This document shows positions 7,383-14,129 of a stretch of 64,000 bases of DNA, in pieces. The stretch comes from the human T2T-CHM13v2.0 reference genome, Homo sapiens. The position numbers and the translations under genes are program-made. The DNA lies in NCBI RefSeq assembly GCF_009914755.1, contig NC_060930.1, one strand, 5' to 3'. The notes below the pieces were generated by a model that saw only the letters and a program-made list of their open reading frames with translations, was not told the DNA's origin and made no database searches. Position 1 is the first letter of the stretch. The number at the start of each line of letters is the position of its first letter.

Positions 7383-7854
<472 letters not shown>

Positions 7855-8248: not shown

Positions 8249-8422
8249 TTGGAGAATTGTTCCGATGAGCATAGGGGCTGGGGTAGGGTGAGGACCGGTG
8301 GCTCCTCAGGGTTGGGTACCTGTCACAGCTGTGCGTGGAGGGGAGGGAGAGGGCACCTCCAAACTGAGGATGAGGATTTGCAGGTGGACACAGGGTGCTG
8401 GTTCCAGGAAGAAGCCACCCCC
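8249..8422 (-). CDS. TBXT: TBXT coding exon 6 (174 nt; 177 nt if the upstream AG is used, start 8425); symmetric and skippable in frame
   Basis: GWLLPGTSTLCPPANPHPQF...HRNNSP. Acceptor cacagcag|GG, donor CAA|GTGAGT. Phase 1-1, length divisible by 3. Confidence 0.97.
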
Positions 8423-8464
8423 CTGCTGTGAGAAAAGACAGTGCTGAGTAACCTGCATTAGTGC

Positions 8465-8672
8465 TCCCTCCATCTCTCCAGAGAGCAGAGCCCAGGCCAG
8501 GGACTGTCCCTCCATCACTCCAGAGAGCAGAGCCCAGGCCAGGGACTCTCCCTCCATCACTCCAGAGAGCAGAGCCCAGGCCAGGGACTCTCCCTCCATC
8601 ACTCCAGAGAGCAGAGCCCAGGCCAGGGACTGTCCCTCCATCACTCCAGAGAGCAGAGCCCAGGCCAGTGAC
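8465..8672. repeat. 42-bp minisatellite, ~5 copies (tccctccatcactccagagagcagagcccaggccagggact[g/c])
   Basis: Near-identical units with period 42, also seen as 14-aa repeats in the ORF track. Confidence 0.97.
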
Positions 8673-9187
8673 TTCCCACCTTCCCCTCAGGGGCCCCTGA
8701 TGGGGGAAGCACCCTGAGTGTCTCATACTTAGGACACAGTCTGCCTCACAAGACATCTGAGGCCATCAGCCCCACACTCACTACCACAGGTAACCCAAGG
8801 CTTCCAATCCTGTGTGTACCTGAGTAAACCCAGGAGCCTGGCCTCAGGCAACCTAAGCTGTTTCCTCCTGAGAATCCTCTGGATTGCTTTGAGATCTACT
8901 ATTCCCCAAGGCAGGTGAGCTTTCCTCCACTGAGCATGAATACAATGTAACCACAGGCAGAGAGCAGGTGAGAGATGCTGAGAGAGGTGGGGTGGTGCTT
9001 AGACAAGGGTGCCCTCCCCTTCTCCTCCTGCCACCCACAGAGACGGGAGGTGCCTTCCTAGCTGGGGGTAGACCCTTTTACTGCTCACTCTCCTGGTTTA
9101 AGCTCCCCCCATTCTCCCCAGGAGAATCAGAAAGTTCTTCCAAGACTCCCCTTCCTTCCTCTAAAACTACAATTTCTTGTCCACTCA

Positions 9188-9485
<298 letters not shown>

Positions 9486-10406
9486 TCTTCTACACTCTTC
9501 AAGCTTTGTTGTTTTGATTGAGAAAAAGCAACCCCTAGCGGGACAACTACTGTGGCTTCAATTTCCAAACTACTAACAATTCTCCAGGCAGCACTGGAAG
9601 GAAGGGTGCAGACGTGCCCTGGCTGCCCAGCCGGCCCTGGCCAGAGCAGTGGCTCACTCTACTCAAGTGACTGCCTTTCTGGTTGTTCAATCAGCCTAGG
9701 AAATGATGAAAAATCTACAGAATAGAAAATGCCTGTGTAAGGAGGAGTGTGCCCTGTTGATTCATCCAGCCTCTTGACCAGCCAGTGCTACCGCGTTCAT
9801 TGTTTAATATCTCCAAGTCCCTTCCCCGGGTGGAGAGGACGGACCAGGATGAGAGAGAGCGTTTCTCCCAACAAATGCTGCCGTATAATCCTCTATCCTG
9901 CACTCTGACTCCTGAAAGTCCTAGAGGGAGCTAGACTTAAATCCAACTCTCTCATCCTCAGAGCCACAGGAGCTGGTGAGACATTCCTAGAACCAAAGGG
10001 CTAAGGAAAAATTTGGTTCCTAAGCATCATTGGAAAGATGGCTCTTCAACCATTAATGAAAGCCTCAAAGAGGAGGTAATGAGCTAGATTCTCCTGTTGC
10101 CTACCTAATACAGGAGAGTCCAAACACCCAGCTAGGTCTCAATGATCCACCCCAGGCATGGTGGCAGCTGCCTCACGGCAAAACAAAAGCACCCAGGAGA
10201 GTATCCACAGCCCCGATTAGAGCAGAGGTTAGATGGGCAACACAGCTTCAACATCACAGGGCCAAGAGCCTCGCATGGCAAAAAGGCAATCTTACATCCC
10301 AGGCACACCCAGAAACACCCTTGTCTTCTCCATCTCCACTTCCCAGCTCTCAGCAAGTCTAGTCCCGATGACGCAGAATGACATGACAGAGTGCAACAAA
10401 CCGTAC

Positions 10407-13930: not shown

Positions 13931-14129
13931 GCGGGGCAAGCCCCGGAGGAAGGTAAGCTGGACGCCCCGGCCTGCCCCAGCCCGCCCCAGCCCGCCCCAG
14001 CCCGCACTTCCGCGAGGGGCTGCCCGGCAGCCTGCGATGCTCCCTGATTCCCGCGCGGGGTCCTCCTCGCTTTCCCAGCGCGCCCGGATCCCGCAGCCGC
14101 GCCAGGCTGGAACGTTCGCGCGGCCTCAC

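What the first reader, a model, noticed from the sequence alone, without database searches (positions are those of the whole stretch)
8426..8672. 42-bp VNTR inside the Alu loop, abutting the exon-6 branch point: a possible human-polymorphic tuner of exon-6 skipping
Seen: ~5 near-perfect 42-bp copies end 2 nt upstream (in transcript sense) of a branch-point consensus CACTAAT (8463-8457, A ~33 nt from the AG). On the RNA each unit carries GGG runs (CUGGG, GAGGGA). The high identity between units suggests recent expansion. Inference: copy number changes the Alu-Alu loop length and the dose of G-run (hnRNP F/H-type) sites next to the 3' splice site. It could therefore set the full-length:delta-exon6 ratio, with relevance to neural-tube defects and chordoma. 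I am not aware of this being described.
Basis: partly seen in the sequence, partly recalled or inferred. Interest (0 to 1): 0.75.

Follow-up and report, generated by a model that had tools for sequence, protein, structure and literature searches.

The report
Common 42-bp minisatellite beside TBXT exon 6
A real 42-base tandem repeat sits just upstream of the TBXT exon whose skipping is linked to tail loss; it is already catalogued as a common human length polymorphism, and simple calculations suggest its copy number should matter little for that skipping, though nobody has tested it.

Summary
The repeat is real: TRF finds 5.1 copies of a 42-bp unit at 8464-8677, 96% matching. In transcript sense it ends directly against the only usable branch-point match, CACTAAT at 8463-8457, whose A is 32 nt from the exon-6 acceptor. 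It lies between the inverted AluY (7443-7732) and AluSx1 (9181-9487).

The repeat itself is already described. A published minisatellite catalogue lists this locus (hg38 chr6:166162662-166162875) as a common VNTR. An allele three units shorter was seen in 623 of 2,504 people. hg38 and CHM13 both carry 5.1 copies.

- **Loop length:** the predicted Alu-Alu stem keeps 244-249 pairs from 0 to 12 units, and the loop-entropy cost is about 0.03 kcal/mol per unit.
- **G-run dose:** it is buffered by G-rich unique flank, giving 5-6 runs within 100 nt at any copy number and 9 versus 10 within 200 nt for 2 versus 5 units.

No paper found links the repeat to exon-6 splicing. It is most likely a near-neutral intronic minisatellite. 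A modest splicing effect is untested, and the 2-unit/5-unit polymorphism is a natural experiment for it.

The parts
8464..8677 (-). 42-bp minisatellite, 5.1 copies, in TBXT intron 5 (intron '6/8' in Ensembl numbering). Transcribed as part of the intron. The G-runs lie on the RNA (minus) strand.
   Evidence: TRF. Five units in register. Equals hg38 chr6:166162662-166162875, TRid 183112020, in the catalogue supplement.
8457..8463 (-). Branch-point-like heptamer CACTAAT, with the putative branch A at 8458.
   Evidence: It holds the only yUnAy match at a usable distance in the last 95 intron bases, 32 nt from the last intron base. The consensus is recalled. The branch point is not mapped experimentally.
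8426..8456 (-). Polypyrimidine tract and 3' splice site of exon 6. It reads ...CUGUCUUUUCUCACAG|CAG|G, a tandem CAGCAG acceptor.
   Evidence: Sequence. The annotation gives exon ends at 8425 and 8422.
8249..8425 (-). TBXT exon 6 (177 nt, in frame), the exon skipped in the delta-exon6 isoform.
   Evidence: Annotation supplied with the finding. Xia et al. 2024, passages.
7443..7732 (+). AluY in intron 6, antisense in the TBXT transcript, with an A8 tail and a 10-nt target-site duplication AAAAGCACAC.
   Evidence: Sequence. Sub-threshold Metazoa_SRP matches on +. Inverted-repeat arms. Listed as a hominoid-specific insertion starting at hg38 166161653, which is window 7455.
9181..9487 (-). AluSx1 in intron 5, sense in the transcript, the pairing partner of the AluY.
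   Evidence: Repeat mask in the annotation. Sub-threshold SRP matches on -. Inverted repeats I1-I4, 76-86% complementary.
8676..8688 (+). Exact match to CCNCCNTNNCCNC at the distal edge of the array. I recall this 13-mer as the human recombination-hotspot (PRDM9) motif.
   Evidence: There are 10 matches in the window against 1.81 expected. Any role in the array's instability is inference only.

Best explanation
This is an ordinary intronic minisatellite. It arose and changes length by slippage or unequal exchange between near-identical 42-bp units. In humans it segregates as at least two alleles, about 5 units (both reference assemblies) and about 2 units. It is transcribed within intron 5 and removed with it. 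Its exon-proximal unit is simply the sequence just upstream of the exon-6 branch point. Because the units are near-identical, gain or loss of units leaves the 42 or more nt next to the branch point unchanged. It changes the Alu-Alu loop by only about 3% per unit, and it barely changes the G-run count within 200 nt of the acceptor. I therefore expect little or no effect on exon-6 skipping, which the AluY-AluSx1 pairing sets. What is shown: the repeat, its position, its polymorphism and the in-silico insensitivity. What is inferred: neutrality.

Polymorphism (catalogue supplement):
- Common_VNTRs.txt gives TRid 183112020, pattern 42, array 214, 5.119 copies, 623 samples.
- Major_genotypes.txt gives ref 0, other 623, NAs 1881, and major genotype -3/-3 in 622.
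- The 150-bp reads cannot span the 214-bp reference array plus flanks. Only the short allele is visible, so carriers are at least 623 of 2,504.
- A variant this common in a panel the paper calls healthy and unrelated argues against a large harmful effect.

The two reference assemblies agree:
- The window-to-hg38 offset is 166154198 at three anchors on both sides of the array (7455, 8464, 13963).
- The inter-Alu gap here is 1,448 bp, the figure Xia et al. give.

Insensitivity in silico:
- There are 244, 244, 244, 249 and 249 Alu-Alu pairs for 0, 3, 5, 8 and 12 units. Loop entropy stays within 0.4 kcal/mol from 0 to 20 units.
- Branch-point unpaired probability is 0.59-0.65 for 0-10 units.
- G-runs within 100 nt number 5-6 at every copy number. 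Within 200 nt they number 9 (2 units) against 10 (5 units).
- The local fold is no more stable than shuffles (z = -0.97, 14 of 100 shuffles as good).

Other work:
- Deleting either Alu abolishes the isoform (Xia et al., passages).
- Inter-Alu distance did not differ between skippable and constitutive exons genome-wide (preprint passages).
Against: - The array occupies 38-251 nt upstream of an alternatively skipped exon's acceptor, where intronic splicing regulators commonly act.
- It is the most G-run-dense 214-nt stretch of TBXT's introns: 11 runs, reached by 1.2% of 330 sliding windows whose mean is 3.2.
- PTB-like pyrimidine motifs within 200 nt do change, from 5 with 2 units to 10 with 5 units.
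- Within 300 nt, G-runs go from 11 to 14.
- Predicted accessibility of the polypyrimidine tract moves between 0.09 and 0.38 across copy numbers, with an odd/even pattern.
- Intronic repeats do change splicing elsewhere, as with ABCA7 and the CFTR TG repeat and NARS2.
- The catalogue flags the locus as overlapping transcription-factor-binding and DNase clusters.
- No splicing data by genotype exist that I could find, so neutrality is an expectation, not a result.
Confidence: 0.62

Rival explanations
1. The repeat modifies splicing through motif dose. Its units bind splicing regulators, such as G-run binders of the hnRNP F/H type, PTB on CUCUCU, or SR proteins on the purine-rich GGAGGGAG. Having 2 rather than 5 units would then shift exon-6 recognition and the full-length to delta-exon6 ratio.
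For: - Position next to the branch point.
- G-run density is 5.1 per 100 nt, against 2.1 in the rest of intron 5 and 1.2-1.3 in introns 6 and 7.
- PTB-like motifs are 4.7 against 1.1 per 100 nt, and they double within 200 nt between 2 and 5 units.
- Precedents: ABCA7 exon-19 skipping rises 3.2-fold with VNTR length, and 9,537 splicing-associated repeats are catalogued (abstract).
- The polymorphism needed for such a tuner exists.
Against: - G-run dose near the acceptor is buffered by the flank.
- The motif assignments are recalled consensus strings, not binding data.
- G-runs (enhancing) and PTB sites (repressing) would act in opposite directions.
- The sequence nearest the branch point is the same at every copy number.
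- ABCA7 effects were seen over kilobase-scale expansions, whereas the known change here is 126 bp.
- TBXT is absent from the main text of the splicing-repeat catalogue (0 mentions). I did not see its supplements.
Confidence: 0.18
2. The repeat acts at the DNA or chromatin level. It could be a transcription-factor or open-chromatin platform. Alternatively, because the non-template strand is G-rich, it could be a site of R-loop formation or polymerase slowing just before exon 6, altering TBXT expression or splicing kinetics.
For: - The catalogue marks the locus TFBS yes and DNAse yes.
- The array is 64% G+C with G-runs on the non-template strand.
Against: - Those flags are cluster overlaps from unspecified cell types.
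- No canonical G-quadruplex is possible: no four G3 runs with loops of 12 nt or less.
- The kappa-B-like matches at two unit junctions are no more frequent than chance in the window (13 against 11.6 expected).
- The notochord-enhancer paper I checked (Kemmler et al. 2023) does not use the word 'intron' in its text.
- The TRid is not in any other list of the catalogue's supplement, such as eQTL or population-specific lists (2 occurrences only).
Confidence: 0.08
3. Copy number tunes skipping by changing the length of the Alu-Alu loop.
For: The array is inside the 1,448-nt loop. Xia et al. argue that the shorter of two possible Alu pairings is favoured, 1,448 against 4,188 bp.
Against: - One unit is 2.9% of the loop.
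- The estimated entropy change is 0.03 kcal/mol per unit and 0.17 kcal/mol for losing all five units.
- The predicted stem is unchanged from 0 to 12 units.
- Genome-wide, inter-Alu distance did not separate skippable from constitutive exons.
Confidence: 0.02

Closest known systems
ABCA7 intron-18 25-bp VNTR (De Roeck et al. 2018, PMC5954066; passages read)
   Same: An intronic minisatellite directly flanking a splice signal, polymorphic in length, next to an exon that is skipped in frame. Its proposed action is through the dose of splicing-factor motifs in the units.
   Different: The ABCA7 array includes the exon-18 donor and ranges from 12 to about 427 units. Its length correlates with exon-19 skipping in patient cells. 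The TBXT array lies upstream of an acceptor, has known alleles of only about 2 and 5 units, and has no splicing data.
Splicing-associated tandem repeats (Hamanaka et al. 2023, PMC10078293), including the CFTR TG repeat and the NARS2 repeat (passages)
   Same: Repeats near 3' splice sites whose length changes exon use, by protein binding (CFTR, TDP-43) or by moving the branch point (NARS2).
   Different: The TBXT array lies upstream of the branch point, so it cannot change the branch-point-to-AG distance as in NARS2. TBXT is not mentioned in that paper's main text. GTEx-type tissues are unlikely to express TBXT enough to test it (my inference).
Inverted-Alu loop-out exon skipping at TBXT (Xia et al. 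2024, PMC10901737)
   Same: The same exon and the same loop. The array is part of the looped-out RNA.
   Different: That paper's text does not mention the array: 'tandem' occurs once, for cell-line authentication, and 'simple repeat' and 'minisatellite' do not occur. The demonstrated determinants are the two Alus, not the loop contents.
Common minisatellite VNTRs of the VNTRseek catalogue (Eslami Rasekh et al. 2021, PMC8096271)
   Same: This exact locus is an entry, TRid 183112020, classed as a common VNTR.
   Different: It appears only as a list entry. No gene name, function or phenotype is attached, and only the allele three units shorter could be seen with 150-bp reads.

Membership tests
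Minisatellite / VNTR | Head-to-tail copies of a 10-100 bp unit | tested here: met
   Period 42, 5.1 copies, 96% matches. Five units in register.
Minisatellite / VNTR | Copy number varies among individuals | tested here: met
   Read from a published table, not from genomes. A non-reference allele was seen in 623 of 2,504 samples, with -3/-3 in 622. hg38 and CHM13 both carry 5.1 copies.
Splicing-associated intronic tandem repeat (ABCA7 type) | Lies in the intron close to a splice signal of the affected exon | tested here: met
   The array ends at 8464. The branch-point heptamer is 8463-8457 and the acceptor AG is 8427-8426.
Splicing-associated intronic tandem repeat (ABCA7 type) | Repeat length correlates with isoform ratio | not testable with these tools
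   No RNA data by genotype are available. No paper was found.
G-run intronic splicing enhancer (hnRNP F/H type) | Runs of three or more G in the intron near the splice site | tested here: met
   11 G-runs in 214 nt, two per unit.
G-run intronic splicing enhancer (hnRNP F/H type) | For the tuner claim: G-run dose near the acceptor changes with copy number | tested here: not met
   Within 100 nt there are 5-6 runs for 0-10 units. Within 200 nt there are 9 against 10 for 2 against 5 units. Only within 300 nt does the count go from 11 to 14.
G-run intronic splicing enhancer (hnRNP F/H type) | Bound by hnRNP F/H | not testable with these tools
   No CLIP data are at hand.
Alu loop-out exon skipping (as a loop-length modifier) | Lies within the loop closed by the inverted Alus | tested here: met
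   AluY ends at 7732 and AluSx1 starts at 9181, and the array lies between them.
Alu loop-out exon skipping (as a loop-length modifier) | Stem formation is sensitive to the length change | tested here: not met
   In silico only. 244-249 Alu-Alu pairs for 0-12 units, and 0.03 kcal/mol per unit.
RNA/DNA G-quadruplex | Four G3 runs separated by short loops | tested here: not met
   No match with loops up to 7 or 12 nt. Matches appear only with loops up to 15 nt (one, in the flank) or 22 nt.

The most novel reading that the evidence does not exclude
The common short allele (about 2 units, 126 bp shorter) and the 5-unit allele differ in exon-6 inclusion. That would make this minisatellite a human splicing QTL for the tail-loss isoform of TBXT. 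It could also be the functional variant behind the unexplained TBXT 'TIVS7-2' association with spina bifida, which a review passage says has an unclear mechanism, or a modifier of chordoma risk. By the classical exon numbering as I recall it, the TIVS7-2 intron lies 2-4 kb from the array.
Probability: 0.08. Interest if true: 0.65.

Novelty: already known. Interest (0 to 1): 0.3.

Why it matters
A common human length polymorphism 38 nt from that exon's acceptor would be the first candidate for natural human variation in the ratio, and it is cheap to test because carriers of the short allele are frequent. As it stands, the repeat is a catalogued, probably neutral minisatellite. The useful outcome here is that one proposed mechanism (loop length) can be set aside and the other (G-run dose) is much weaker than it looks.

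Tried and rejected
- **Special RNA structure.** The 321-nt region folds at -160.1 kcal/mol, but shuffles fold as well (z = -0.97). Rejected as evidence.
- **G-quadruplex.** Rejected.
- **Kappa-B-like sites at unit junctions.** GGGACTCTCC occurs twice, but the pattern is at chance level in the window. Rejected.
- **Known TBXT notochord enhancers.** The enhancer paper does not use the word 'intron', and another paper gave nothing relevant. Dropped.
- **Age of the array.** No primate sequence can be fetched with these tools.
  - Xia et al.'s list of hominoid-specific insertions has only a 1-bp T at hg38 166162867 (window 8669) inside the array. It has no 42n-bp block, and the deletions file has no row in 1661624xx-1661629xx.
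  - Either the monkeys also carry the units, or some ape assembly lacks them. The two readings cannot be separated.
  - That supplementary file was cut when stored and the SNV file was too large to read.
- **Other catalogues.** The supplements of Bakhtiari et al. 2021 and of PMC11701250 held no TBXT entry and no matching coordinates.
- **Literature searches that found nothing on this repeat.**
  - TBXT + VNTR: 10 papers held both terms and 8 were listed. The one hit I opened used VNTR only in the SVA element name, and I did not open the others.
  - TBXT + tandem repeat + intron: 33 papers, none on this repeat judging by titles and abstract starts.
  - brachyury + minisatellite: 3 papers.
  - TBXT + sQTL: 4 papers.
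- **Not run.** Splice-site scoring programs and SpliceAI are not available here.

Full report
**1. The observation**

Tandem Repeats Finder reports a single array between 7000 and 11000. It spans 8464-8677, with period 42, 5.1 copies, 96% matches, no indels and score 393.

The consensus unit matches five places in register: 8464, 8506, 8548, 8590 and 8632, with 1, 1, 0, 0 and 2 mismatches. It matches nowhere else in the window, and none of 100 shuffles gave a match. Only three positions vary among the units, and the mean pairwise difference is 1.4 of 42. The 42-mers on either side match the consensus at 14 of 42 positions, so the array has sharp edges and no decayed units.

**2. The surroundings**

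TBXT runs on the minus strand, and exon 6 is 8249-8425. In transcript sense the intron ends ...[array]CACUAAUGCAGGUUACUCAGCACUGUCUUUUCUCACAG|CAG|GGGG.
- CTAAT within CACTAAT (8463-8457) is the only match to the recalled yUnAy branch consensus at a usable distance in the last 95 intron bases.
- Its A, at 8458, lies 32 nt from the last intron base. That is inside the typical 19-37 nt quoted in a passage of Hamanaka et al..
- The acceptor is a tandem CAGCAG, which fits the alternative exon end at 8422 in the annotation.

- An AluY lies at 7443-7732 on the plus strand, with an A8 tail and a 10-nt target-site duplication.
- An AluSx1 lies at 9181-9487 on the minus strand.
- The two are 76-86% complementary over their arms, and both give sub-threshold SRP-RNA matches in opposite orientation.
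- The gap between them is 9181 - 7732 - 1 = 1,448 bp. That is exactly the distance Xia et al. 2024 give for the pair (PMC10901737, passages).

The array is therefore inside the loop that traps exon 6.

**3. Is the repeat already known, and is it polymorphic?**

Three anchors give the same window-to-hg38 offset of 166154198:
- the AluY row in Xia et al.'s supplementary list starts at 166161653, which is window 7455;
- the array itself (see the catalogue entry below);
- a second small repeat at 13963-14005, which equals 166168161-166168203 in the catalogue.

GRCh38 and T2T-CHM13 therefore carry the same 5.1-copy allele.

The supplement of Eslami Rasekh et al. 2021 (PMC8096271) lists the locus.
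- Common_VNTRs.txt holds TRid 183112020, chr6:166162662-166162875, pattern 42, array 214, copy number 5.119. The flags are Intron yes, TFBS yes, DNAse yes, and No_samples is 623.
- Major_genotypes.txt gives ref 0, other 623, total 623, NAs 1881, major -3/-3 and major_n 622.
- The paper defines common VNTRs as loci with non-reference alleles in at least 5% (126) of 2,504 unrelated individuals sequenced with 150-bp reads (passages).
- Its method needs the whole array plus 10-bp flanks inside one read (passages).

The 214-bp reference allele is therefore invisible in that data set. The '-3/-3' calls mean only that an allele three units shorter (about 2.1 units, 88 bp) was seen. By my own arithmetic, alleles one or two units shorter, or longer than the reference, could not have been seen.

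At least 24.9% of people carry the short allele. Under Hardy-Weinberg proportions that implies a frequency near 0.13 (my inference). The TRid appears in no other list of that supplement (2 occurrences).

Its possible link to exon 6 is not: I found no paper that makes it.
- TBXT + VNTR: 10 papers held both terms and 8 were listed. The one hit I opened used VNTR only in the SVA element name, and I did not open the others.
- TBXT + tandem repeat + intron: 33 papers, none on this repeat judging by titles and abstract starts.
- brachyury + minisatellite: 3 papers.
- TBXT + sQTL: 4 papers.
- Xia et al.'s text uses 'tandem' once, for cell-line authentication.
- Two other VNTR studies' supplements held no TBXT entry.

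**4. Age of the array**

I could not fetch primate sequence. Xia et al.'s list of insertions shared by six hominoids and absent from macaque or marmoset has only one row inside the array. It is a 1-bp T at 166162867 (window 8669), the G-to-T difference in the distal unit. There is no 42n-bp block. The deletions file has no row in the interval.

Either the monkeys also carry the units, or at least one ape assembly lacks some of them. The data cannot separate these readings. 'Recent expansion' is thus neither shown nor refuted. The 3.3% divergence between units and the existence of a 2-unit human allele are compatible with it.

**5.

*Loop length.* I built copy-number variants from the window inside scripts.
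- The minimum-energy fold of the whole AluSx1-to-AluY RNA keeps 244, 244, 244, 249 and 249 inter-Alu pairs for 0, 3, 5, 8 and 12 units.
- A Jacobson-Stockmayer estimate (1.75 RT ln of the length ratio, a recalled formula) gives 0.03 kcal/mol per unit and 0.17 kcal/mol for losing all five units.
- A preprint on inverted Alu pairs found that only exon length, not inter-Alu distance, separated skippable from constitutive exons (10.1101/2025.03.07.642063, passages).

I regard this mechanism as negligible.

*G-run dose.* The array is G-run dense on the RNA strand.
- It has 5.1 runs per 100 nt, against 2.1 in the rest of intron 5 and 1.2-1.3 in introns 6 and 7.
- It is the densest 214-nt stretch of TBXT's introns. 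Only 1.2% of 330 sliding windows reach its 11 runs.
- The unique sequence just beyond the array is also G-rich, so the count near the acceptor barely depends on copy number.
- Within 100 nt of the branch point there are 5-6 runs for 0-10 units. Within 200 nt there are 7, 9 and 10 for 0, 2 and 5 units. Only within 300 nt does the count go from 11 to 14 between the two known alleles.
- PTB-like pyrimidine motifs change more: 5 against 10 within 200 nt.

*Accessibility.* The predicted unpaired probability of the branch-point heptamer is 0.59-0.65 at every copy number. That of the polypyrimidine tract moves between 0.09 and 0.38, with an odd/even pattern. The local fold is no more stable than shuffled sequence (z = -0.97). 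No canonical G-quadruplex can form.

**6. Verdict**

My best explanation is an ordinary, common, already catalogued intronic minisatellite with little or no effect on exon-6 skipping (confidence 0.62). A modest motif-dose effect on splicing stays open (0.18). A DNA-level role is possible but thinly supported (0.08). Loop length can be set aside (0.02).

The closest known case of the hypothesised function is the ABCA7 intron-18 VNTR, where exon-19 skipping rises with array length. There the arrays range from 12 to about 427 units (PMC5954066, passages).

The most interesting open reading is that the 2-unit and 5-unit alleles form a natural splicing QTL for the tail-loss isoform. It might also relate to the TBXT TIVS7-2 association with spina bifida, whose mechanism a review calls unclear (PMC9224552, one passage). 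That is cheap to test because carriers are common, but nothing here supports it beyond position.

**Limits**

- All folding results are thermodynamic predictions.
- The motif definitions are recalled consensus strings.
- The population data come from one short-read study that could see only one non-reference allele.
- Supplements I could not read may hold relevant rows: Xia et al.'s SNV file, the truncated part of their insertion file, and the supplements of Hamanaka et al.

Noticed in passing
window 8421-8427 (- strand): The exon-6 acceptor is a tandem CAGCAG (NAGNAG). This matches the annotation's alternative exon end at 8422 against 8425, that is, isoforms differing by one codon.
   Followed up: partly
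window 13963-14005: A second small tandem repeat (10 bp x 4.3, CGCCCCAGCC) lies in the TBXT promoter / LNCDAT region. It too is listed as a common VNTR (TRid 183112021), flagged upstream, intron, CpG and TFBS, with non-reference alleles in 305 of 2,504 samples.
   Followed up: partly
window 8676-8688 and nine other sites: The 13-mer CCNCCNTNNCCNC, recalled as the human recombination-hotspot motif, occurs 10 times in the window against 1.81 expected, and none of 100 shuffles reached 10. One copy sits exactly at the distal edge of the minisatellite. Three others read CC[AG]CCTTGGCCTC, which looks Alu-derived.
   Followed up: no
window 7432-7441 and 7729-7738: A 10-nt target-site duplication AAAAGCACAC flanks the AluY, consistent with a clean retrotransposition.
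   Followed up: no
window 7577-7628 (+) and 9300-9351 (-): Both Alus give sub-threshold matches to the Rfam mir-1268 family (58.1 and 45.2 bits against a gathering score of 83). This is probably just Alu-derived similarity.
   Followed up: no
window 8464-8673: The first base of the units follows the pattern C, G, C, C, G. Units 1-2 and 4-5 form two 84-bp blocks that are 98% identical. Unequal exchange between those blocks would give exactly a 2-unit array, that is, an allele three units shorter. This is inference only.
   Followed up: no
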